The position numbers and the translations under genes are program-made. A DNA stretch of 64,000 nt from Omnitrophica WOR_2 bacterium GWF2_43_52 (lineage in GTDB: Bacteria; Omnitrophota; Gorgyraeia; Gygaellales; UBA12090): contig MHGF01000028.1 of NCBI GenBank assembly GCA_001805445.1, positions 9,651 through 73,650 of the forward strand. The letters are read 5' to 3'. Each line of letters opens with the position of its first letter. The stretch's first letter is position 1. This document shows, piece after piece, positions 1 through 63,563 of the stretch. A model generated the notes under the pieces. That model searched no databases, was not told the DNA's origin, and was given only the letters and a program-made list of their open reading frames with translations.

Positions 1-100
1 GCGCTCCGCCGACTTATCGTCGGCTACGCTGAGCACCCCCCAATCGTGGGGAAAATTTTTCCCCACACCCCTTTTAGTACACCGTCACACTAGTAAAAAC
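1..100. repeat. Y-family structured repeat, copy 1 (truncated by window edge)
   Basis: Shares a block with copies at 37858-38048 and 49085-49300 (gcgctc..ccgcc-hairpin-ggcgg..ctgagcaccccccaa..cgtgggg..ccccacaccc). Hairpin stems differ between copies but pairing is preserved. Confidence 0.6.
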
Positions 101-222
101 TAATTTAACGGTGTAATAGTTACATTGTATCGGTAATTTCAAGATAATCATCTACCATGTTCAAATCACAGTGTGTGCCGGTAGACGGGTTATCTCTTCA
201 ATTACCTCTCCTTATCCTTAGT

Positions 223-3690: not shown

Positions 3691-3790
3691 AAAGGTTGCG
3701 TAAGGTTACGTGAGGTTGCGTAAAGTTACGTGAGGTTGCGTGAAGAAGTTACATAAGGTTACAAAGGCACCGTTACGAAACCTCACGCAA
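3691..3790. repeat. 10-bp-phased direct repeat array (aggttRcgtR x about 6) plus one inverted copy (cctcacgcaac)
   Basis: Read directly from the sequence: aggttgcgtaaggttacgtgaggttgcgtaaagttacgtgaggttgcgtgaagaagttac...cgttacgaaacctcacgcaac. Lies between the MshEN gene stop and the gspE-2 start. Confidence 0.7.
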
Positions 3791-20300: not shown

Positions 20301-21131
20301 CTACTCCTCTTGAGACAGCTCTTTCGCTCGTTTTGAAGCTGCCTTAACCGCTTCCACGAGAGACCCTGTCCTGTGAAGGGCTTCTAAACCCGCCTCGGTA
20401 GTCCCTCCTTTTGAAGTAATTTGTTTTTTCGCTTCAGAAGGAGATATTTTTGCTTTTTCAAAATAAAGATTACTTCCTGTCCCCGTGCCTACGGCTAAAA
20501 ATTCCGCATCCTGCTGGCTAAAGTTAACACTGATAGCCGCATCCGTTAATTCGGTGTTAAAATCCTTGAGGAATTTATCTGGATTTCTCTTATATTCCTG
20601 GTTGCGGGATTCAATCCTATCAAAATAATACCCAGGGCCGCTTCCGGAAACCGCGGTTGCGGCATTCATCAAGCTTTCATCTATAATCAGGCTCTTTCCC
20701 ACATACTCAAAGAGCTTTTTGGCAAAAGCCAAATCTTCATCTAAGGCAAACTTTCCTTTACACAGGCAGGTGAGCCCTTTGCCAATCTTAGCCGGCATAT
20801 TCGGCATTGCCCTGATAACTCTTACCTTCCCTAATCGTTTTTCAATATGTCCGGTACGTATCCCTGCGGCAATAGAAATAAATACTTTGCCGGAAACGGC
20901 ATTCCTTATTTCGCTTATGGTAGTATCGGAATCCTGGGGTTTTACGGCTATGATAACAGTATCAACGTTATTGACTAAAGCGATAGTGTTATCGGCAATA
21001 ACGACTCCCCGCGCGCCTTCAAGCTTACGATTATCCTTATCAAATATCCAAAGCTGATAATAGGCTTTTAATTGCTCGGCAAGAGCAGAGCCCATATTCC
21101 CAAAACCGATAATCCCAAGGGTAGGTTTCAT
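20301..21131 (-). CDS. proC: Pyrroline-5-carboxylate reductase
   Basis: 276 aa. N-terminal Rossmann 'GIIGFGNMG'. Confidence 0.85.
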   Translation of the reverse strand: MKPTLGIIGFGNMGSALAEQLKAYYQLWIFDKDNRKLEGARGVVIADNTIALVNNVDTVIIAVKPQDSDTTISEIRNAVSGKVFISIAAGIRTGHIEKRLGKVRVIRAMPNMPAKIGKGLTCLCKGKFALDEDLAFAKKLFEYVGKSLIIDESLMNAATAVSGSGPGYYFDRIESRNQEYKRNPDKFLKDFNTELTDAAISVNFSQQDAEFLAVGTGTGSNLYFEKAKISPSEAKKQITSKGGTTEAGLEALHRTGSLVEAVKAASKRAKELSQEE

Positions 21132-21805
21132 CCTTCGAAAAGAGCCCTTCCTAAACGCACCATGGTCGCTCCCTCTAAAATCGCAGCCTCAAAATCACCG
21201 GACATCCCCATAGAAAGGATCGAGAGTTTATGGACACTTTTCTGGGAAAGACTATCTCGCAGCTGCCTCAGATCCCTAAAATAGGGGCGTACCTTTTGAG
21301 GGGTATCTACCATAGGAGCAATAGCCATCAGTCCGTTCACGCTTACATTTTTGAGCATTTCTATTTCCTTTAGTGCCTCTCCCACCGCTTGCGGAGCAAA
21401 GCCATACTTAGTTTCCTCAGCCGAGATATTAACCTGAATCAACACCTCTTGTATTTTTTGTATCTTTGACGCCTCCTTATCAATCTCAGACGCCAGATGT
21501 ACACTGTCTACCGAATGAATCAAATCAAACATTTTTACGCAATCGTCTACTTTATTGGTCTGAAGATGGCCTATCATATGCCAGCGCAGCCTCATGAGGT
21601 GGTGGCACTGGGCATAGTGTTGCCTGGCTTCCTGAATTTTATTTTCCCCTATATCTGTTACGCCGGCCTGAGTTACTTCCTGGACTTCTTCTATACTACG
21701 GCCTTTGGTGACCGCAATCAGCGTAATCTCCCGAGGCTGTCTTTGGGCTCTGACACAAGCAAGCCGTATTTTTTCTTGCACCATGGCTACTTTTTGCCGT
21801 ATCAT
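21128..21805 (-). CDS. yggS: YggS-family pyridoxal-phosphate homeostasis protein
   Basis: 225 aa. Alanine-racemase-N-like fold, 'VTKGRS' region. Confidence 0.85.
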   Translation of the reverse strand: MIRQKVAMVQEKIRLACVRAQRQPREITLIAVTKGRSIEEVQEVTQAGVTDIGENKIQEARQHYAQCHHLMRLRWHMIGHLQTNKVDDCVKMFDLIHSVDSVHLASEIDKEASKIQKIQEVLIQVNISAEETKYGFAPQAVGEALKEIEMLKNVSVNGLMAIAPMVDTPQKVRPYFRDLRQLRDSLSQKSVHKLSILSMGMSGDFEAAILEGATMVRLGRALFEG

Positions 21806-21879
21806 GGTAGTGCTCCGTCAAATTAATCCTTATAGATTAACGGCACAGTAGTACACCGTGACATAAATTTCTGTTATCT

Positions 21880-22046
21880 AGGGCGGAGGTCCTGTCAAGG
21901 TTATGTCTTCGCGGGGACGTTCGGCCTGCTCCTGCGGCAGGCCTCACTCGGCGTAAATTTCTGCGCTCCCCGCCGTTGGCGGGGAGACCAAGCCGCAGGA
22001 ATTTCCGTACGCCCCGCTCACACATAACCTTGCCACCCCCGCTTTC
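21880..22046. repeat. X-family structured repeat, copy A (about 165 bp, terminal inverted repeats caaggttatg/cataaccttg)
   Basis: Near-identical to the reverse complement of 49325-49490. Differences lie in hairpin stems and are compensatory (ccccgccgttggcgggg versus ccgcctgcggcgg). Confidence 0.8.
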
Positions 22047-22220
22047 AAGATAAAACGCGATAGCATGAATTTATGTCATAACGCAGTAGTATATGAGTGT
22101 TTATGCGGCTGTTAACACCAAGGAAAAATTGAAGCCGCCTAAACACGCAATAAATTATAGCTTCTTTTGCGTTTTTTACAAGCACTTTTGGTAATAGCAA
22201 GTAATGCGCCACTGAACGAG

Positions 22221-35320: not shown

Positions 35321-36604
35321 CTAACCGGTTAACCTATTTACTATCTCCTTAAACACCTTTCCCCTATGTTCATAGTTTTCAAACATATCGAAACTCGCGC
35401 ACATGGGAGAAAGCAAGACACAATCCCCTGGTTGGGCATTACTAAAACTAACCTTAACCGCCTCCTCAAGGCTTGAGACTTCTGTAATAGGTAAAACACC
35501 GTTAAGTGCCGCGCGTATTTTATCTTTAGCCTCTCCAAACAAAACAAGGAGCTTTACCTTGAGCTTCATTACACTAGCAATCTGGCGGTAATCGCTTTTT
35601 TTATCCCGCCCTCCGGCAATCAAAAAAGCCGGTTTATGGATAGTATGCAATGCCCATACAGTAGAATCAACATTCGTTGCCTTTGAATCATTGATAAAAT
35701 CTATTTCGTTAATGGTACGGACTACTTCCATACGATGCTCAACGCCCTTGAAGTTACAAAACACTTCATCACTCACAGCATCGGGGATAGCAAAAATAGT
35801 GGCAACCGCCTTTACCGCAAGGTGATTGGGATTCAGATTGCTTTCTCCACTCTTTAGGTGGTTGTGCATACTGAAAAAAACCGTCTTTGCCCTGGTTTCC
35901 TGTGACAATACCCTGAGTGATGGATCATCGTAATTAAGTACCGTAAAGTCATGCTCATCCTGATTCATGAAAATTCGTTTTTTTGCCTGAAAGTATTCCC
36001 GCATATCTTTGTAACGGTCAAGATGATCGGGAGTCAGATTTAAAATCACCGATACGCGAGGTTTAAAATTACGAATGGTTTCTAATTGAAAAGAACTTAC
36101 CTCCAGTGAAACAAAATCATCTTTGGTAAGGTTCAAAACCTCTTGCGAAAACGGCCTACCGATATTGCCTAAGGCTAACGCCTTCTTCCCGGATGCCTCT
36201 AACACCTTAGCCATCAGGGTAGTAACCGTGGTCTTGCCGTTTGTCCCGGTAACGGCAATGACGGTTGCCGGGCACAACGACCATGCCAGCTCTATCTCGC
36301 TTATAACAGGAATACGCAATGTATCAGCCCACCGTAAGGCCTCTGAGGTATTACTCACCCCGGGGCTTACTACCAGCAAATCCTTGTTACGGATAAAATC
36401 TAAAGTATGCCCTCCGATTTCTACGATAAAACCCTTCCTTCGCAAATCCTCGGCACTTGCCTTTATCTTTTCCTGCGAGCCGCTGTCGCTAAGGAATACC
36501 TCGGCCCCTGCCTCTCTAAGCAAATGCCCGGCCGCAATTCCGCTTCGCGCCATGCCAACTACCACAACTTTTTTATTTTTGTAACTTAGCCCTTTCTCCA
36601 TCAT
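35321..36604 (-). CDS. murD: UDP-N-acetylmuramoylalanine--D-glutamate ligase
   Basis: 427 aa Mur ligase. 'GTNGKTTVT'. Confidence 0.9.
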   Translation of the reverse strand: MMEKGLSYKNKKVVVVGMARSGIAAGHLLREAGAEVFLSDSGSQEKIKASAEDLRRKGFIVEIGGHTLDFIRNKDLLVVSPGVSNTSEALRWADTLRIPVISEIELAWSLCPATVIAVTGTNGKTTVTTLMAKVLEASGKKALALGNIGRPFSQEVLNLTKDDFVSLEVSSFQLETIRNFKPRVSVILNLTPDHLDRYKDMREYFQAKKRIFMNQDEHDFTVLNYDDPSLRVLSQETRAKTVFFSMHNHLKSGESNLNPNHLAVKAVATIFAIPDAVSDEVFCNFKGVEHRMEVVRTINEIDFINDSKATNVDSTVWALHTIHKPAFLIAGGRDKKSDYRQIASVMKLKVKLLVLFGEAKDKIRAALNGVLPITEVSSLEEAVKVSFSNAQPGDCVLLSPMCASFDMFENYEHRGKVFKEIVNRLTG

Positions 36605-36650
36605 ACTCTCTACTCTCTACTCTCTACTCTCTACTCTCTACTCTCTACTT
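36603..36650. repeat. Heptanucleotide tandem repeat (ctctact x about 7) in the murD-mraY intergenic region
   Basis: Read directly from the sequence. Coordinates plus or minus 2. Confidence 0.85.
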
Positions 36651-36651
36651 T

Positions 36652-37746
36652 TTACCGTATTTTTAACGTTGCTAAGGTAAGCACCGCCAAGATTATCCCC
36701 ACTATCCAGAAGCGCACAATTACTTTACTTTCCGGGCAACCTAAGACCTGAAAATGATGGTGTAAAGGAGCAACTTTAAATATCCGCTTTCCTTTTCGCA
36801 GCCGAAACGACCCGACCTGTAAAATTACCGATAATGCCTCAACAACAAAGATTCCACCGACAACAACCAAAAGAAGTTCTTTTTTAATAAAAACCGCTAT
36901 AGTCCCGATAGCCCCTCCTAATGCCAAAGAGCCTATATCGCCCATAAAGACGCTTGCCGGAAAACAATTAAACCATAAAAACCCCAAACCCGCTCCTAAA
37001 ATACTCGCGCAAAAAACAGTCAATTCCCCTGAGCCGGGAATAAAAGGAATCAACAAATATTTACTAAAAACAAGATGGCCAGAGACATAACTTAAAATAG
37101 TATAGGTCAATGTCACCATAATGGTAGAACCAATAGCCAGGCCATCCAACCCATCCGTAAGATTAACGGCGTTGGAACAACCCACAACCACGACCATAAC
37201 AAAAAAGATATAAAACAATCCCAGATTAAGCATACTTTCTTTTAAAAAAGGGACATCAATGTGCGGCCCAAGATTTTTGTCATAATAGGCAAAGAGGCCA
37301 ACACCTAATCCTATCAACGCCTGGGGGATGAATTTCTCCGTAATACTAAGGCCCTTGGAACGTTTTTTGGTAAGTTTGATATAATCATCGCGAAACCCTA
37401 TCCAGCTAAAGCATAGAGTTACGACAAGAGTAAGAAGGATATAGCGATTCTGTAAATCCGCCCAGAGCAAAACCGAGAGCACAATACTTAACAAAATAAG
37501 GATCCCGCCCATGGTGGGAGTACCGGCCTTTGAGCTATGCAGCTGATATAAATCCAGGCACTCCTCAGCGCTGCGTAAGTGCTGGCCTATCTTTAACTGG
37601 GCGAGCTTACGAATCAGCCAGGGCCCAAAAATAATGCTGATAAGAAAAGCCGTCGTAGCGGCTAAGACGGCTCTGAAGGTGATATACTTAAAAATGTTAA
37701 AAAAAGAATGGAACTCTCTGAGAGGATAAAGGAGATGAAAAAGCAT
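36652..37746 (-). CDS. mraY: Phospho-N-acetylmuramoyl-pentapeptide transferase
   Basis: 364 aa polytopic. MraY motifs. Confidence 0.92.
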   Translation of the reverse strand: MLFHLLYPLREFHSFFNIFKYITFRAVLAATTAFLISIIFGPWLIRKLAQLKIGQHLRSAEECLDLYQLHSSKAGTPTMGGILILLSIVLSVLLWADLQNRYILLTLVVTLCFSWIGFRDDYIKLTKKRSKGLSITEKFIPQALIGLGVGLFAYYDKNLGPHIDVPFLKESMLNLGLFYIFFVMVVVVGCSNAVNLTDGLDGLAIGSTIMVTLTYTILSYVSGHLVFSKYLLIPFIPGSGELTVFCASILGAGLGFLWFNCFPASVFMGDIGSLALGGAIGTIAVFIKKELLLVVVGGIFVVEALSVILQVGSFRLRKGKRIFKVAPLHHHFQVLGCPESKVIVRFWIVGIILAVLTLATLKIR

Positions 37747-37857
37747 AGCTTACAATAACAGAGAGTACAGCATCAAACGCTGGAGCTCCGCATAGAAATA
37801 AAGTAGCGTTGAGAATTTAAGCATACTGCCGAACGACGGTTATCGCACATGCACATA

Positions 37858-38048
37858 CATATAGTGCTCCGTTAACTTAATTCTTACTGGTATAGCGAAA
37901 GTTAACTCCGCACTTCCGCTAGGGGGGCAAGCCCCCCTTCGGCGCTCTCCGCCTACGGCGGATCGCTGAGCACCCCCCAAACGTGAGGGACGGTCTCCCC
38001 CACACCCCCTTACTGCGTTATGACATCAAAAATTAATATTACAACGCA
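37858..38048. repeat. Y-family structured repeat, copy 2, inside the dcw cluster (murF-mraY spacer)
   Basis: tagtgctccgttaa box, hairpins with covariation relative to copy 3, ctgagcaccccccaaacgtg core. Confidence 0.8.
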
Positions 38049-38078
38049 GTAGACACTATAAAGCCTTACAGATTATGA

Positions 38079-39479
38079 TTATATCAAAAGATCCTCAAGC
38101 TTCATTGCCCGCGAACCTTTAAGCAAAATGGTATCATTCTTTTTTGCTATCGCGGAAATGATAGTTCGTGCCTGCTCTAGGGATGAACATCGAAAAATAG
38201 ACCGCGGATTAAACCCGCAGGTTTGGGCGGCATCACATGCGCCTTGGCTTAAAGGCCCTATGCCCACAATGACATTGACGTTTGTTTTACTAAGGGCTTC
38301 CCCCATTTGCTGATGGAACAGCTCCGCGCGATTACCTAATTCCATCATATCAGCCATGACCATGATTTTTCTTCCTGATGCCGGCAAATGATGAAACGCG
38401 TCGAGCGCGCAGCGAAACGATGCCGGATTAGCGTTATAGGCATCATCAATAATCGTCATTCCTTTTACTTTCTTCATCTGGAAGCGCGCCTTAGGAAACG
38501 CGAAATCCTGGAATCCTTTTATAATATCGTAGGCATCGACGCTAAAAAGCCTGGCTACGGTATACGCGGCCAAGGCGTTATAAATATTGACCCTAGAAAC
38601 AGTAGTAAGGGAACAAGGATAACGTTTGACGTAAAACGAAATCTTTTTTTTGCCGCGGCGCACTCTTTGTGCCATGATATCCGCTTTATGATGTATACCA
38701 AAGGTGAAAAAAGTTACGTCGCCAGGAAGCCCCGAAGGCCTTTCTCTAAGTAAAGGATCGTCACCATTGAGTATGGCTATACGCGGCCAGGCCAATTCTT
38801 CGACTAAATCCCACTTCTCTTTTAAAACTCCCCCTTCATCGCCGAAGAACTCCAAATGTGCCGGGCCAATATTCGTAATAACCCCCACACTCGGCGCGGC
38901 AATCCTTGCCAGCTCGCGGATTTCACCGAAATGATTCGTCCCCAATTCTAAAACCGCCATTTCATGATGATGCCGCAGGTTAAGCAAAGTTAAAGACAGG
39001 CCGATACTATTATTCTGGGTACCTTCATTCTTTAAGACCTTGTATTTTGAGCTTAAAAGCCGGGAAATCATTTCCTTTGTTGTGGTTTTCCCATTAGAAC
39101 CGGTAATACCGATAACCGGAATGGCAAAACGCTTACGATGATAATACGCCAAATCACTTAACGCTCCTAGGGTGTTGCCTACCGCGATAAGGCTATGAGG
39201 GATTGTGCTGCCAAGGAGAATAACATTGTAGCGAGAAAAAATAATACATGAGGCGCCTTTCGCGATTGCTTCGGGAATAAAGTCATGGCCGTCAAAACGC
39301 TCTCCCTTAATACAGATGAAAATGTCGCCCTTCTTAAGGGTGCGGGAATCTATGGAAATTCCCGTAAAGAGTTCATCGGGCTCACCGATGATTAAGGCTC
39401 CACCTGTTGCCTCTATTACTTCACCGGCAGTAAAAAAGTGAGCTGGCATTTTTTCTCCTGGTATTCTATGTCGAACCAT
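38079..39479 (-). CDS. murF: UDP-N-acetylmuramoyl-tripeptide--D-alanyl-D-alanine ligase
   Basis: 466 aa Mur ligase. 'GSNGKTTTK'. Confidence 0.9.
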   Translation of the reverse strand: MVRHRIPGEKMPAHFFTAGEVIEATGGALIIGEPDELFTGISIDSRTLKKGDIFICIKGERFDGHDFIPEAIAKGASCIIFSRYNVILLGSTIPHSLIAVGNTLGALSDLAYYHRKRFAIPVIGITGSNGKTTTKEMISRLLSSKYKVLKNEGTQNNSIGLSLTLLNLRHHHEMAVLELGTNHFGEIRELARIAAPSVGVITNIGPAHLEFFGDEGGVLKEKWDLVEELAWPRIAILNGDDPLLRERPSGLPGDVTFFTFGIHHKADIMAQRVRRGKKKISFYVKRYPCSLTTVSRVNIYNALAAYTVARLFSVDAYDIIKGFQDFAFPKARFQMKKVKGMTIIDDAYNANPASFRCALDAFHHLPASGRKIMVMADMMELGNRAELFHQQMGEALSKTNVNVIVGIGPLSQGACDAAQTCGFNPRSIFRCSSLEQARTIISAIAKKNDTILLKGSRAMKLEDLLI

Positions 39480-47447: not shown

Positions 47448-47778
47448 CTTTAATCCTTTCTATCTTTGAGGCGATATCAATGCTATACTCAACCGAATTA
47501 TCCAGCTTAAAGATTATCTCGGGAGTAAGGCGCAGTTTTAGCTTTTGCCCGATAAGATGGCGTATCAACCCTTTGGCAGACTCAAGCGCGTCCTGAGCCT
47601 TCCGCTTCTGCAAGTCAGTGCCCATGATACTAATATAAATCTTGGCAAGCTGTAAATCCCTGGTTACTTCAACTCTCATGACGGTAACAAACCCCAGGCG
47701 GGGATCGCTTAATTCTGTCTGAAGGATACTGCCAACTTCTCTTTTTATCTCTTGCGCTACTTTTTCAATCCTGCTCAT
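47407..47778 (-). CDS. rbfA: Ribosome-binding factor A
   Basis: 123 aa KH-like RbfA. Confidence 0.85.
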   Translation of the reverse strand: MSRIEKVAQEIKREVGSILQTELSDPRLGFVTVMRVEVTRDLQLAKIYISIMGTDLQKRKAQDALESAKGLIRHLIGQKLKLRLTPEIIFKLDNSVEYSIDIASKIERIKDELKQSSRGNSKK

Positions 47779-49081
47779 CTCTACACTCCTGTTTTTGATG
47801 CTGCCACTTTAAGGCTTTATGCTTTACATAATTGATTTCTTCTTCTTTTGTCCTAAACTTTCCATCCAGTTTCGCGTAAAAAAGCTCTCTCAGGATTTCC
47901 TTAAACCGCGGGCCGGGCGCCATGCCCAAGGCCTTGAGTTCCTCGCCATTAAGATGTATCTGTATTCCCTTATGAAAAAACAAAAAATCCGTAATCTTGT
48001 TTCTTATTTTCTGTTGGCGCGCCTTGAGGTACACAAGTAAAATTACTTCATCGGGGACTACTCCCAATACCCTGTAAATTTCGCTGGCACTCTTTGCTTT
48101 CTTGAGCCTCGCCAAGATCCTTTGCGATTCCTTTTTAAACAGCACAGCGGCATTGGTTTCATGTTTCCTAAAAGCAAACTCGGAGAGCACCCTCTGCAGG
48201 GTATGCGGCTCTAAGTCTTTCAAAAGAATGATTAAATAAAGAACCCACGGCTCTACTTTATGCCTATGGGGAAACTCTTTGATAAAACACTCATAAAGCT
48301 CTCTGATTTTTTTAAACAAAGGATAGCTCTTGGATGAGACTTTAAGCTGTGGATGGATAAATTCAAACCCGTAAAGTTGGTTGATTCTTCGCAGGCAGCC
48401 TACGACAGTATGCTCCTTTAAAATAAGGATAAGCTCGTCGCGAAGGCGGTGCTTATGCACCTTTTCAAGCATCGCGCGCGAGGCTGCCTCACGGAAAAGC
48501 CCCCGCGTTTGTTTTTCCATGGAAAAACCGAAACGCTGTTCAAAGCGGATGGCGCGCAGCATTCGCGTAGGGTCGTCAATAAAGCTTGCCGCGTGTAAAA
48601 CCTTAATCACCTTCTTTTGCAAATCCTGCCTGCCGCCGAAATAATCGACGAGTTTTCCGAAGCTATTTTCTGAAATATCAACGGCCATGGCATTAATGGT
48701 AAAATCCCGGCGCGCGACATCATCGTGTATAGTCCCCGGGCTTACCTTGGGCAGGCTCCCCGGGCATTCATAAAATTCTTTACGAGCGCTGGCAATGTCT
48801 ATTTTTACTTTGTCATGAGTAATCAGGGTCGCGGTTCCAAAACGCTTGTGCGTAACAAAATCTACTCCCATCTTTTTGCTAAGCTCCCTAGCAAACAGGA
48901 TTCCATCGCCTTCAACTACAATATCCAAATCATAATCCTCAACCCCAAGGAGTAAATCCCGGACAAAGCCTCCCACCACGTACGCCGGATACCCCAACTC
49001 CTTCGCCAGGTTGCCAATAAACCTGAGGCGCTCCAAAACCTCTTGAGGCTGTGTATTTAATTTTTTGGTTACATTATCCAT
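47765..49081 (-). CDS. cca: CCA tRNA nucleotidyltransferase / poly(A) polymerase family protein
   Basis: 438 aa. 'GGFVRDLLLG...DYDLD' Pol-beta head domain. Confidence 0.85.
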   Translation of the reverse strand: MDNVTKKLNTQPQEVLERLRFIGNLAKELGYPAYVVGGFVRDLLLGVEDYDLDIVVEGDGILFARELSKKMGVDFVTHKRFGTATLITHDKVKIDIASARKEFYECPGSLPKVSPGTIHDDVARRDFTINAMAVDISENSFGKLVDYFGGRQDLQKKVIKVLHAASFIDDPTRMLRAIRFEQRFGFSMEKQTRGLFREAASRAMLEKVHKHRLRDELILILKEHTVVGCLRRINQLYGFEFIHPQLKVSSKSYPLFKKIRELYECFIKEFPHRHKVEPWVLYLIILLKDLEPHTLQRVLSEFAFRKHETNAAVLFKKESQRILARLKKAKSASEIYRVLGVVPDEVILLVYLKARQQKIRNKITDFLFFHKGIQIHLNGEELKALGMAPGPRFKEILRELFYAKLDGKFRTKEEEINYVKHKALKWQHQKQECRDEQD

Positions 49082-49084
49082 TAT

Positions 49085-49300
49085 TTTCTAGTGCTCCGTC
49101 AAATCAATTCTTATGAGTAAGCGAAATTTGACTCCGCACTTCCCTGCCTCGCCTTGCTCGGCAAGGCTGGCGCTATGACCCGCCAGCGGCGGGACTGAGC
49201 ACCCCCCAAAGCGTGGATGACGGTCTCCCCCACTCCCACTTTAGTGCACTGATAATCATTAAGAACTAAGTTTACAGTGCACTAGTGCTTCGTGACATAA
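49085..49300. repeat. Y-family structured repeat, copy 3
   Basis: tagtgctccgtcaaat...atttgactccgcacttcc plus hairpins plus ctgagcaccccccaaagcgtg...ctcccccactccc plus terminal hairpin agtgcactg/cagtgcact. Confidence 0.8.
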
Positions 49301-49321
49301 ATTTTTGCTATCTGCAACACT

Positions 49322-49493
49322 TCACTTGCCAGCGGGGGTGGCAAGGTTGTGTTTGAGCGGGGCGTACGGAAATTTTCGCGGCTTGGACTCCGCCGCAGGC
49401 GGAGCGCGGAAATTTACGCCGAGTGAGGTCTGCCGCAGGAGCAGGCCGAACGTCCCCGCGAAAACATAACCTTGACAGGACCTCCGCCCTATA
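49322..49493. repeat. X-family structured repeat, copy B (inverted relative to copy A with respect to the shared flank)
   Basis: Both copies follow the motif cgtgacataaattt..tatct. A is forward and B is its reverse complement. TIRs ggcaaggttgtg / cataaccttgacagg. Confidence 0.8.
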
Positions 49494-49581
49494 TTCAAAC
49501 ATGATAGCGCAATGTCAGAATCTAATGTCACAGCGCACTAGTATCCCTTATACACTTTACACTTACACACTTACACACTTT

Positions 49582-57787: not shown

Positions 57788-57862
57788 TCATGAAAGTCGG
57801 GGAGGGCGGATTTGAACCGCCGGCCTTGTCGTCCCGAACGACACGCTCTAGCCAAGCTGAGC
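57788..57862 (-). tRNA. tRNA-Pro (anticodon CGG)
   Basis: 75 nt. Perfect 7-bp acceptor stem (CGGGGAG/CTCCCCG), D, anticodon (TGTCG/CGACA, loop TTCGGGA) and T arms (GGCGG/CCGCC, TTCAAAT). Discriminator A. CCA is not encoded. Confidence 0.9.
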
Positions 57863-57966
57863 CACTCCCCGGTCTGCTTCGCTCTACAACTTCTAAGAAA
57901 TTATGGCATGAGCTTCGCAGACCTTCTTGCTGCGAAGCCATACTCTTACAGATGGGCGGCTTCCCG

Positions 57967-63261: not shown

Positions 63262-63463
63262 ATCTTCTCCCATCTAGACTTTCGCCAAAACCACTATGGT
63301 GGTTTGGCGTGCGCCTCTGCGCTAGCCCAAACTAATCTGATAGTTTGGCATGCGCCTTCTACGCAACTATCGGCACTGGACTTACACCAGTTCATGCCCT
63401 ATTTCTACTGGAGCTCGCGGGCTTTACCGCCGGTCGGGAATTGCACCCTGCCCCGAAGATTAA
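63262..63463 (-). promoter_or_regulatory. FMN riboswitch (RFN element) controlling the rib operon
   Basis: Minus strand reads cttcggggcagggtgcaattcccgaccggcggtaaagcccgcgagc ... gaaagtctagatgggagaag. These are the conserved 5' and 3' RFN cores. The variable region is unusually long, with two similar hairpins. Confidence 0.85.
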
Positions 63464-63563
63464 ATATATTCTACAATGAAATTTCACATTGTCAAGCCTT
63501 TTGTATTCGGATATAATGGCACTATCGCATCTTTAAATTAATTTTATATGTTAACGGAGCACT

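What the first reader, a model, noticed from the sequence alone, without database searches (positions are those of the whole stretch)
37858..38048. Y-family structured repeat (3 copies in 64 kb) with compensatory base changes; candidate small RNA or REP/BIME-like element, one copy inside the dcw operon
Copies at 1-100, 37858-38048 and 49085-49300 share conserved single-stranded blocks (actccgcacttcc, ctgagcaccccccaa, ctcccccacaccc) interrupted by hairpins. The hairpin sequences differ between copies but pairing is preserved: TCAAAT/ATTTGA versus TTAACT/AGTTAA, tccgcc/ggcgga versus cccgcc/ggcggg, and ggggggcaagcccccc versus gccttgctcggcaaggc. That pattern indicates selection on structure, either as transcribed RNA or as a DNA hairpin substrate (REP/RAYT-like). 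Copy 2 splits murF from mraY, which are normally contiguous.
Basis: seen in the sequence. Interest (0 to 1): 0.6.

Follow-up and report, generated by a model that had tools for sequence, protein, structure and literature searches.

The report
Mobile repeat carrying a folded RNA module
The repeat is a small non-autonomous transposon (a MITE moved by an IS630-type transposase) whose cargo is a strongly conserved, folded, G-rich RNA-like module of unknown function; it sits between genes of operons in several uncultured bacterial phyla.

Summary
A covariance model finds exactly three core copies in the window, all on the minus strand, which is the strand of the genes. The reported compensatory hairpin changes hold up in about 130 further copies from Omnitrophota, NC10 and Planctomycetota MAGs and metagenomes.

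The REP/RAYT interpretation is wrong. Each copy has terminal inverted repeats (GTGCnCnGTTAA...) and a TA on each side, usually within CTAG. Tandem neighbours share one TA. The ends are 67-89% identical over 18 nt to the ends of a 1.2-kb IS630-family insertion sequence (HTH + DDE_3). That IS lies directly against copies in two metagenome contigs. The element is therefore an IS630-type MITE, like pneumococcal RUP.

Relatives with 79-80% identical MraY have only 7-9 nt between murF and mraY, so copy 2 is an insertion.

The unusual part is the ~95-nt core: three covarying hairpins joined by near-invariant G-rich linkers. It is conserved across different end modules and phyla. It matches only the orphan Rfam motif Clostridiales-2, below threshold (30-47 bits; cut-off 58.6).

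In AT-rich loci the copies are oriented with the flanking genes (48 versus 9). Many end in GGAGCAC-TA a few bases before a start codon. The core's function is inferred, not shown.

The parts
37864..38049 (-). Y copy c2, whole element body, between murF (38079-39479) and mraY (36652-37746). TA dinucleotides flank it at 38050-38051 and 37862-37863.
   Evidence: Relatives lack it: the murF-mraY gap is 9 nt in L167/L168 and 7 nt in L170.
38013..38049 (-). c2 5' hairpin H1. The outer arm is the left terminal inverted repeat CTGCGTTGTAATATTAAT. It is followed by TA (38011-38012).
37914..38011 (-). c2 conserved core, in order: AAGGGGGUG; P-a 37983-38003; linker GUUUGGGGGGUGCUCA 37967-37982; P-b 37944-37966; GCCGAA; P-c 37922-37937; UAGCGGAA.
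   Evidence: CM hit of 103.5 bits. Covariation. Sub-threshold Rfam RF02937 hit at 37932-38018 (-), 33.3 bits.
37864..37913 (-). c2 3' hairpin H3', GUGC-GGA-GUUAAC...GUUAAC-GGA-GCAC. The outer arm is the right terminal inverted repeat and carries GGAG.
49091..49282 (-). Y copy c3: H3' 49091-49139, core 49140-49241, H1 about 49242-49282. Flanking TA at 49089-49090 and 49283-49284. Its end GGAGCAC-TA lies 7 nt before the ATG of the CCA/poly(A)-polymerase gene (47765-49081).
1..116 (-). Y copy c1, cut by the window start: core 4-74 and H1 80-116. TA at 78-79 and 117-118. It lies downstream of the T2SS-E ATPase gene (223-1914).
21810..21848 (-). c4, a 39-nt solo hairpin made of the two terminal repeats only (a deletion derivative). 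It is flanked by TA and ends GGAGCAC-TA-CC-ATG at the YggS-like gene (21128-21805).
   Evidence: Another contig that encodes the identical YggS protein (L187) carries a full Y copy ending at the same TA-CC-ATG.
63525..63562 (+). c5, a decayed solo derivative on the plus strand. It ends GTTAACGGAGCAC-TA-TG, where the A of the TA begins the ATG of a plus-strand ORF.
49285..49538 (+). Z2, a sister MITE with the same kind of ends (GTGCTTCGTGACAT...ATGTCACAGCGCAC) but a different GC-rich cargo. It shares one TA with Y c3.
21851..22086 (-). Z1, the second Z copy, inverted relative to Z2. It shares one TA with c4.

Best explanation

Mobility. An IS630-family (DDE_3) transposase moves it in trans. It inserts at TA, preferably within CTAG, which leaves a TA on each side. 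Its two terminal hairpins each consist of a terminal inverted repeat plus an internal complementary copy.

Cargo. The cargo is a ~95-nt G-rich module that folds, on the gene-sense strand, into three hairpins (P-a, P-b, P-c). Near-invariant single-stranded linkers join them: AAGGGGGUG, UUGGGGGGUGCUCA, GCCGAA and UAGCGGAA.

Inferred working model. Copies survive mainly inside operons in the sense orientation, where they are co-transcribed with the flanking genes. In that orientation the untranslated insert is G-rich and tightly folded, which makes it a poor Rho loading site. The antisense transcript would expose C-rich linkers. The 3' terminal repeat supplies GGAG a few bases before the TA, so a gene whose own ribosome-binding site was pushed about 190 nt away can still be translated. 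The GGGGGUG(CUC) linkers mimic a Shine-Dalgarno sequence and may hold 30S subunits nearby.

Shown: the anatomy, covariation, TA flanks, match to the IS630 ends, insertion status, orientation bias and cross-phylum conservation. Inferred: transcription, the ribosome-binding role and avoidance of Rho polarity.
For: Mobility:
- A 1.2-kb IS carries HTH_23/29/32 and DDE_3 ORFs. Its ends are TA|GTGCGTTGTTAAATTAAT...ATTTAACAATGCAC|TA. It abuts a Y copy in L134 and shares one TA with it.
- The same IS family has TA-flanked ends in L171-L176 and L188. L174 again has a Y copy abutting the IS.
- The ends of well-delimited Y copies are 67-89% identical to the IS left end over 18 nt.
- Tandem copies share a single TA: window c3/Z2 and c4/Z1, plus L161, L061 and L134.
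- Minimal derivatives keep only the two terminal repeats (c4, c5).
- Relatives have a 7-9-nt murF-mraY gap.
- A contig that encodes the identical YggS protein carries a different element at the same TA.

Cargo:
- Covariation supports P-a and P-b.
- P-c occurs in independent compensating versions: GGGGGG/CCCCCC, CCUUGC/GCAAGG and GCCCCGAC/GUCGGGGC. Its CCG/CGG extension is replaced by CGAU/AUCG in one copy.
- In P-a and P-b, G.U pairs outnumber A.C mismatches 12 to 2 on the G-rich strand.
- The linkers stay invariant even where the search pattern did not require them.
- Ends and P-b differ between copies of one genome, for example JAUSCZ01: L012, L022, L037, L039 and L047.
- Every copy tested hits Rfam Clostridiales-2 over its full length on the sense strand.

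Context:
- In loci below 50% GC, the upstream gene is co-oriented 26 to 5 and the downstream gene 22 to 4. All five window copies and derivatives are co-oriented with the downstream gene.
- 10 of 22 GGAG-ended copies lie within 12 nt of a long ORF's start codon.
- The core is 42% G and 26% C. Its linkers hold 19 G and 5 C out of 39 bases.
- No promoter-like or terminator-like site on the minus strand falls within copy 2.
Against: - No clean empty-versus-filled pair was obtained for a Y copy, so TA duplication rests on flanks and shared TAs.
- The transposase was not found in the window, and it could not be tied to the source genome.
- No expression data were available.
- Closeness to start codons is partly forced by the very short spacers of these genomes.
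- The GGAG versus non-GGAG difference in start-codon proximity (10/22 versus 4/18) is not significant.
- G.U counts in H1 and H3' do not favour one strand, so those hairpins may matter only as DNA.
- GC-rich (NC10-type) loci show no clear orientation bias, although ORF calling is unreliable there.
- Some lineages have the core without these ends: type iii has other hairpins and type iv has a terminator-like hairpin. The core therefore also exists outside this MITE backbone.
- The sequence-level invariance of the linkers goes beyond what merely being G-rich and folded would require.
Confidence: 0.6

Rival explanations
1. The core is a functional RNA in its own right, such as a self-cleaving ribozyme, a ligand- or protein-binding riboregulator, or a trans-acting sRNA. 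It merely rides on MITEs. The Rfam orphan Clostridiales-2 would be the same RNA in Firmicutes.
For: - Near-invariant unpaired nucleotides sit between covarying helices of variable length, which is typical of catalytic or binding cores.
- The core is conserved across different end modules and phyla.
- Type iv copies end in a terminator-like hairpin, like a discrete sRNA.
- All copies tested give full-length sub-threshold matches to Clostridiales-2.
- G.U pairs outnumber A.C mismatches 12 to 2.
Against: - No known ribozyme or riboswitch model matches, even at E<=10.
- No promoter-like or terminator-like site on the minus strand falls within copy 2; the scan covered only 37600-38200.
- Neighbouring genes are unrelated.
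- The density is high: three full copies in 64 kb.
- No pseudoknot or long-range pair is supported by covariation.
- There are no expression or cleavage data.
Confidence: 0.25
2. It is a plain selfish MITE. The core is neutral filler that looks conserved only because the family spread recently and horizontally. Hairpin 'covariation' would reflect subfamily history, not selection.
For: - MITE RNAs in general fold into long stem-loops (PMC2229807).
- Pneumococcal BOX, RUP and SPRITE repeats were judged parasitic (PMC3049150).
- Many copies lie at contig ends, as expected for a recently amplified repeat.
- The shuffle controls do not correct for relatedness of the sequences.
Against: - Within single genomes, the ends, loops and P-b differ strongly between copies while the linkers, P-a and P-c stay identical.
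- The core is shared by backbones with different terminal repeats (Omnitrophota type versus NC10 type) and by non-MITE contexts.
- Orientation bias is 48 to 9 in AT-rich loci.
- P-c has several independent strand-swapped versions.
Confidence: 0.1
3. It is a REP/BIME-like element handled by a RAYT (IS200/IS605-type HUH) transposase acting on single-stranded DNA hairpins.
For: - The hairpins at both ends resemble each other, and the stems covary.
- G.U counts in the end hairpins are not strand-specific.
Against: - The ends are true inverted repeats flanked by TA and match an IS630/DDE_3 element.
- No Y1/HUH transposase was seen next to any copy in about 1.1 Mb of loci. The neighbours that were seen were one IS630 and one IS1595.
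- At about 190 nt, the element is far larger than a REP.
Confidence: 0.03

Closest known systems
RUP (repeat unit of pneumococcus), an IS630-Spn1-related MITE
   Same: Both are small non-coding intergenic repeats. In both, the terminal inverted repeats resemble those of an IS630-family IS, and insertion is at TA. Both are often found next to IS copies (PMC2229807, PMC3049150). Here the Y copies abut the IS in L134 and L174.
   Different: RUP is 107 bp, confined to mitis-group streptococci, and has no conserved structured cargo. Y is about 190 bp, has a foldback hairpin at each end, and carries a ~95-nt covarying core shared across phyla and across different end modules.
Correia/NEMIS elements of Neisseria and ERIC of enterobacteria
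   Same: They are TA-flanked MITEs co-transcribed with neighbouring genes. Their RNA hairpins affect mRNA processing or stability, and for ERIC the effect depends on orientation (PMC2229807).
   Different: There is no sequence relation. Their effects run through RNase III or RNase E sites in one long stem-loop. Y has a multi-hairpin core with invariant G-rich linkers, and its effect on mRNA is untested.
Rfam RF02937, the Clostridiales-2 RNA motif (a candidate sRNA of unknown function)
   Same: The order of elements is the same: GGGGGUG, then a G/C hairpin, then GG(A)GGGUGCUCAG, then a short hairpin, then CG(U/C)CGAAGGG. All copies tested align over the full model on the sense strand.
   Different: Scores are 30-47 bits against a gathering score of 58.6. 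The Rfam model stops before P-c and has no terminal hairpins. That family is reported from Clostridiales, while this one comes from Omnitrophota, NC10 and Planctomycetota. Whether Clostridiales-2 copies are also MITE-borne could not be checked.
REP/BIME with RAYT transposases
   Same: Both are abundant intergenic palindromic repeats inside operons.
   Different: REPs are 20-40-nt palindromes processed by HUH transposases and lack TA-flanked inverted repeats. Y fails these features.

Membership tests
IS630/Tc1-mariner-type MITE | Terminal inverted repeats at the two ends | tested here: met
   Left and right ends of well-delimited copies are 61-83% identical over 18 nt. Examples are GTGCACCGTTAAGTAAAT / GTGCTCCGTTAACTTAAT, and for c3 GTGCACTGTAAACTTAGT / GTGCTCCGTCAAATCAAT.
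IS630/Tc1-mariner-type MITE | Terminal repeats resemble those of an autonomous IS630-family element (HTH + DDE_3 transposase) | tested here: met
   The L134 IS has DDE_3 (E=3e-24) and HTH_32/23/29 domains. Its ends and those of L171-L176 and L188 read GTGC(T/G/A)(C/T)TGTTAAATTA. Y ends are 67-89% identical to them.
IS630/Tc1-mariner-type MITE | TA target-site duplication | tested here: inconclusive
   TA flanks both ends of all window copies and of the IS copies, usually as C-TA...TA-G. Adjacent elements share one TA. No exact empty site for the same insertion was recovered. The empty murF-mraY junction of L168 reads TTAATTAACAGAGCAC-TA-TG, which itself looks like a remnant of a 3' arm.
IS630/Tc1-mariner-type MITE | Small, non-coding, multicopy and dispersed | tested here: met
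   Elements are about 185-195 bp. P-b lengths differ by non-multiples of 3, so there is no ORF.
IS630/Tc1-mariner-type MITE | Matching transposase present in the same genome | not tested
   Only the 64-kb window of the source genome was available, and it has no such ORF. The IS copies found lie on short metagenome contigs of unknown organism.
REP/BIME-RAYT | Short (20-40 nt) palindromes associated with a Y1/HUH (RAYT) transposase, without TA-flanked inverted repeats | tested here: not met
   The element is about 190 nt with TA-flanked inverted repeats. The only transposases next to copies were one IS630-type and one IS1595-type.
Rfam RF02937 Clostridiales-2 | Covariance-model score at or above the curated gathering score (58.6 bits) | tested here: not met
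   33.3 bits for c2 and 30.6-47.1 bits for eight other copies. No hit at the gathering threshold in the window or in 18 loci.
Rfam RF02937 Clostridiales-2 | Same order of conserved blocks and helices over the whole model | tested here: met
   The alignments cover model positions 1-82 of 82, with both helices and the GGGUGCUCAG and CGAAGGG blocks matched.
Riboswitch or gene-specific cis-regulator | Recurrent association with one gene family or pathway | tested here: not met
   Downstream genes include mraY, CCA/poly(A) polymerase, a YggS-like gene and atpD-like genes, among many others.
Independent sRNA gene | Own promoter and terminator | tested here: inconclusive
   No promoter-like or terminator-like site on the minus strand falls within copy 2. 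A minority subfamily (L057, L069, L048, L067) has a terminator-like hairpin right after the core. No expression data were available.

The most novel reading that the evidence does not exclude
The ~95-nt core is a portable functional RNA module, for example a ribosome-recruiting or anti-polarity intercistronic cassette, or an undescribed ribozyme or aptamer. IS630-type MITEs have spread it through operons of Omnitrophota, NC10 and Planctomycetota. The orphan Rfam motif Clostridiales-2 would be its Firmicute relative. In that reading, a transposon family owes its success to carrying an RNA device that makes insertions inside operons harmless or useful.
Probability: 0.3. Interest if true: 0.7.

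Novelty: new variant of a known kind. Interest (0 to 1): 0.5.

Why it matters
MITEs are usually treated as featureless hairpins. Here the cargo, not the ends, is the most conserved part. It is kept across different transposon backbones and at least three phyla of uncultured bacteria with small, tightly packed genomes, and it sits in the sense orientation between cistrons of essential operons such as dcw and atp.

If the core really preserves downstream expression, through an SD supply, ribosome standby or avoidance of Rho polarity, it would show how a transposon can colonise operons. It would also be a ready-made intercistronic part.

The finding gives the first context for the orphan Rfam motif Clostridiales-2. 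For annotation, it explains the unexpected 332-bp gap between murF and mraY. It also explains assembly breaks in Omnitrophota MAGs, because many copies lie at contig ends.

Tried and rejected
- Rfam at gathering threshold, on the window and 18 loci: only an FMN riboswitch, tRNAs and c-di-GMP riboswitches elsewhere. At E<=10 nothing convincing appeared except Clostridiales-2. A remembered likeness of P-a to HDV ribozyme P4 found no support.
- Literature: no text on Clostridiales-2. The supplement of the paper that described the motif is not held. Nothing was found on Omnitrophota MITEs or on MITE/Rho polarity.
- Scan of viral contigs for the core: 0 hits.
- BLAST of the Clostridiales-2 consensus against plasmids and phages: nothing useful.
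- Protein-coding reading of the core: rejected, because P-b length varies by non-multiples of 3.
- RNAalifold's alternative pairing of the linker G-run with the P-c C-run: rejected, because copies with other P-c sequences keep the linker unchanged.
- GCUCA/UGAGC register for P-b: rejected in favour of G52-C82/C53-G81 plus tandem G.A, which fits all subfamilies and covaries.
- Strand test on the end hairpins by G.U counts: inconsistent (H1 38 versus 79, H3' 46 versus 24).
- GGAG versus non-GGAG 3' arms and distance to the start codon: a trend only.
- Strain-level presence or absence: all same-species contigs carry c2 and c3. Only the yggS site differs (L187).
- Association of the core with the 216-aa ORF or the IS1595 gene in type-iii loci: each looks like a single orthologous locus or a single case, so neither is informative.
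- Search for further IS630 copies in the loci already fetched: only L134.

Full report
**1. What is in the window**

All long ORFs around the finding lie on the minus strand. The dcw cluster runs mraZ ... murE, murF (38079-39479), then a 332-bp gap, then mraY (36652-37746), then murD and onward.

A repeat search added a fourth partial copy at about 21808. It also revealed a second repeat family, Z, at 21876-22090 and 49281-49494.

Read on the minus strand, each full copy has the same plan:
- TA
- hairpin H1 (GUGCACCGUUAA...UUAACGGUGCAC)
- TA
- AAGGGGGUG
- hairpin P-a (GUGGGGG-AGACCGU-CCCCCAC)
- G(N)UUGGGGGGUGCUCA
- hairpin P-b, of variable length
- GCCGAA
- hairpin P-c (GGGGGG-CUUG-CCCCCC)
- UAGCGGAA
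- hairpin H3' (GUGC-GGA-GUUAAC...GUUAAC-GGA-GCAC)
- TA

Both strands fold better than shuffled sequence. The minus strand folds better still: -84.3 kcal/mol (z=-5.2) against -64.6 kcal/mol (z=-3.8).

**2. Is it more than chance, and how many copies are there?**

A genome-collection scan with a 20-base two-block pattern returned 45 loci. About 25 of them are clear homologues:
- Candidatus Omnitrophota MAGs, including five loci in one MAG (JAUSCZ01).
- NC10/Methylomirabilis.
- Planctomycetota MAGs.

The rest, in Streptomyces and others, are chance matches.

Together the two scans give about 130 distinct copies.

A covariance model of the core (93 positions, 22 pairs) was run on the whole window with filters off. 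It finds exactly the three copies, all on the minus strand, at 103.5, 45.8 and 31.2 bits. Nothing else scores below E=0.3. Across 93 sources it finds 96 copies.

The source organism is an Omnitrophica WOR_2 bacterium from Rifle groundwater (GWF2_43_52; related assemblies GCA_001804465.1, GCA_001804385.1 and GCA_003499645.1).

**3. Structure**

The following results come from 43 non-redundant cores (alignment A2).

*P-a.* Three of its eight pairs switch type: G-C to A-U, U-A to C-G, and G-C to A-U.

*P-b.* It has two conserved closing pairs (G-C and C-G, the second changing to U-A in four sequences). Then comes a tandem G.A/A.G. Then comes a stem whose sequence and length vary freely while staying paired.

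*Overall.* 98.2% of cells pair, against 91.8% in column shuffles. There are 68 double-change cells against 18.5 in shuffles (0 of 500 reach the observed value). All slid registers fall to 44-60% paired.

*P-c.* It was fixed by the search pattern in that set. Copies found by other routes show it in independent compensating versions:
- CCUUGC/GCAAGG in window c3.
- GCCCCGAC/GUCGGGGC in L187.
- Its CCG/CGG extension becomes CGAU/AUCG in a second copy in L089.

These variants keep the G-rich linker unchanged. That argues against RNAalifold's alternative pairing of that linker with the P-c C-run.

*Strand.* In P-a and P-b, G.U pairs outnumber A.C mismatches 12 to 2 on the G-rich strand. That points to folding of that strand as a single strand. 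The end hairpins give no consistent strand signal.

*Linkers.* The linkers are nearly invariant even in the set whose search pattern did not include them.

**4. What moves it**

The outermost 18-20 nt of the two ends are inverted repeats of each other. Every copy is bracketed by TA, most often as C-TA...TA-G. Adjacent elements share a single TA: c3 with Z2, c4 with Z1, and tandem copies in L161, L061 and L126.

A search of all fetched loci for such ends 0.6-4 kb apart found one case, L134. There a Y copy is followed, across one shared TA, by a 1.2-kb element encoding a 149-aa HTH_23/29/32 protein and a 207-aa DDE_3 protein. That is the two-ORF layout of IS630-family transposases.

The DDE_3 protein has more than 120 relatives at 83% identity or higher, mostly on ~1.2-kb contigs. 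This is the signature of a multicopy IS. Five further copies of the IS (L171, L174-L176, L188) have ends C-TA-GTGCTCTGTTAAATTAGTTG...TTTAACAGCGTAC-TA-G. In L174 another Y copy abuts the IS across a shared TA.

Ends of well-delimited Y copies are 67-89% identical to the IS left end over 18 nt. For c2 the values are 0.67 and 0.83, and for c3 0.83 and 0.78.

Insertion at TA, ends similar to an IS630-family element, and a habit of lying next to IS copies are what the literature reports for pneumococcal RUP and IS630-Spn1 (PMC2229807, PMC3049150). From my own knowledge, IS630 itself prefers CTAG.

The 39-nt c4 and 38-nt c5 are deletion derivatives that keep little more than the two terminal repeats. 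Z has the same kind of ends and a different GC-rich, hairpin-forming cargo.

REP/RAYT is therefore rejected.

**5. Copy 2 as an insertion, and turnover**

Relatives whose MraY is 80% and 79% identical (L167/L168 and L170) have 9 nt and 7 nt between murF and mraY. A third relative (83% identical, L169) has an unrelated ~265-nt insert at that spot.

The L168 junction reads TTAATTAACAGAGCAC-TA-TG. This closely resembles the 3' arm of H3' (TTAAGTTAACGGAGCAC-TA-TATG). That lineage probably keeps a remnant of an older copy, which now provides the murF stop codon and the bases before the mraY ATG.

All same-species contigs carry c2 and c3. At yggS, a contig encoding the identical protein (L187) carries a full Y copy. 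That copy ends at the very same TA-CC-ATG where the window has Z1 plus the solo hairpin c4.

A clean empty-versus-filled pair for one insertion was not obtained, so the TA duplication remains indirect.

**6. Context**

The downstream genes are unrelated: mraY, a CCA/poly(A) polymerase and a YggS-like gene in the window, and atpD-like and many others elsewhere.

ORF calling is reasonably safe in loci below 50% GC. There the upstream gene is on the element's sense strand 26 times against 5, and the downstream gene 22 times against 4. All five window copies and derivatives are co-oriented with the gene that follows.

A TA target is symmetric, so this bias suggests selection after insertion.

Many copies end GGAGCAC-TA only 0-12 nt before the start codon of a long ORF:
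- 10 of 22 GGAG-ended copies do so.
- Only 4 of 18 copies with other 3' arms do so, a trend that is not significant.

No promoter-like or terminator-like site on the minus strand falls within copy 2.

**7. The core beyond this MITE**

The same core occurs with other ends:
- NC10-type inverted repeats, CTAGTGCCCCTCCAAC.../...GTTGGTGCGGCACTAG.
- A type with a different 5' hairpin, whose 3' arm can also pair with a 3' tail (UUUAUCCGGGG).
- A type in which the core is followed by a terminator-like hairpin, GAAAAUCGGC...GCCGAUUUUCUU.

No Rfam family reaches its gathering score. Every copy tested does align over the whole model of RF02937 (Clostridiales-2 RNA) on the sense strand at 30-47 bits (E=1e-8 to 1e-3; gathering score 58.6). 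The shared blocks are GGGGGUG, P-a, GG(A)GGGUGCUCAG, P-b and CG(U/C)CGAAGGG. I found no text on that motif's function.

**8. Mechanism: shown and inferred**

*Shown:* anatomy, covariation, TA flanks, IS630-like ends, insertion status, orientation bias and cross-backbone conservation.

*Inferred:* the element is co-transcribed with its operon. In the sense orientation the insert is 42% G and 26% C, and its unpaired linkers hold 19 G against 5 C. From established knowledge of Rho, which loads on C-rich, G-poor, unstructured RNA, the sense transcript should escape Rho. The antisense transcript would expose CACCCCCC-type linkers and be polar, which would explain the orientation bias.

The 3' repeat supplies GGAG at Shine-Dalgarno distance from the TA. 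In the common subfamily the opposite arm also reads GGA, which leaves the GGAG in an internal loop rather than fully paired.

The linker GGGGGUGCUC is complementary to the conserved 16S 3' end GAUCACCUCC. The match is eight Watson-Crick pairs, one wobble and one mismatch. This rests on the general bacterial sequence, because the organism's own 16S is not in the window. The Clostridiales-2 consensus has AAGGAGGG at that place. A ribosome-standby role is therefore possible.

The invariance of the linkers goes beyond what these roles strictly need. A more specific RNA function, catalytic or binding, remains open.

**9. Verdict**

It is a new IS630-type MITE family whose distinguishing feature is a conserved, covarying RNA-like cargo related to an orphan Rfam motif. 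I class it as a new variant of a known kind, of moderate interest.

Noticed in passing
window 21851-22086 and 49285-49538: Z is a second MITE family with the same kind of TA-flanked ends (GTGC/GTAC...GTGACAT) but a different ~200-nt GC-rich cargo. Its two copies are 85% identical and inverted relative to each other. An internal hairpin changes with compensation (TCTCCCCGCC/GGCGGGGAG versus ACTCCGCC/GGCGGAG). There is no Rfam match.
   Followed up: partly
window 37747-37861: A 115-nt spacer between the end of Y copy 2 and the mraY ATG has no counterpart in relatives and no repeat elsewhere in the window. It begins with a mini-ORF, ATG TAT GTG CAT GTG CGA TAA, right after GGAGCAC-TA.
   Followed up: no
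L169 2155-2420: A sister species (MraY 83% identical; JAHFFP01) has a different ~265-nt insert between murF and mraY, so this junction is a recurrent insertion spot.
   Followed up: no
L168 2478-2503: The 'empty' murF-mraY junction reads TTAATTAACAGAGCAC-TA-TG. This looks like a leftover 3' arm of a Y-type element that now provides the murF stop codon and the bases before the mraY start.
   Followed up: partly
L037 2918-3142 and L053 6414-6638: Two species have Y copies between the atpG-like and atpD-like genes, at slightly different distances from the ATG. In L053 all four hairpin arms carry the same change (GTGC to GTAC/GTAT). This suggests independent insertions of different subfamilies, or concerted change.
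   Followed up: partly
window 63350-63464 (-) and 57797-57871 (-): An FMN riboswitch (73.1 bits) and a tRNA gene lie here. The solo derivative c5 lies about 60 nt away from the riboswitch, on the other strand.
   Followed up: no
window 36604-36655 and 3693-3742: There is a heptamer tandem repeat (TACTCTC, about 7 units) between mraY and murD. There is also a 10-nt periodic repeat (AGGTTGCGTA/AGGTTACGTG) between two genes.
   Followed up: no
L070 2923-3570; also L135, L141, L154, L092: A conserved 215-aa ORF with no Pfam match lies divergently upstream of the type-iii form of the core in five loci. In L055 an IS1595 transposase sits in that position instead. c-di-GMP riboswitches lie within about 0.5-2.4 kb in L070 and L072.
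   Followed up: partly
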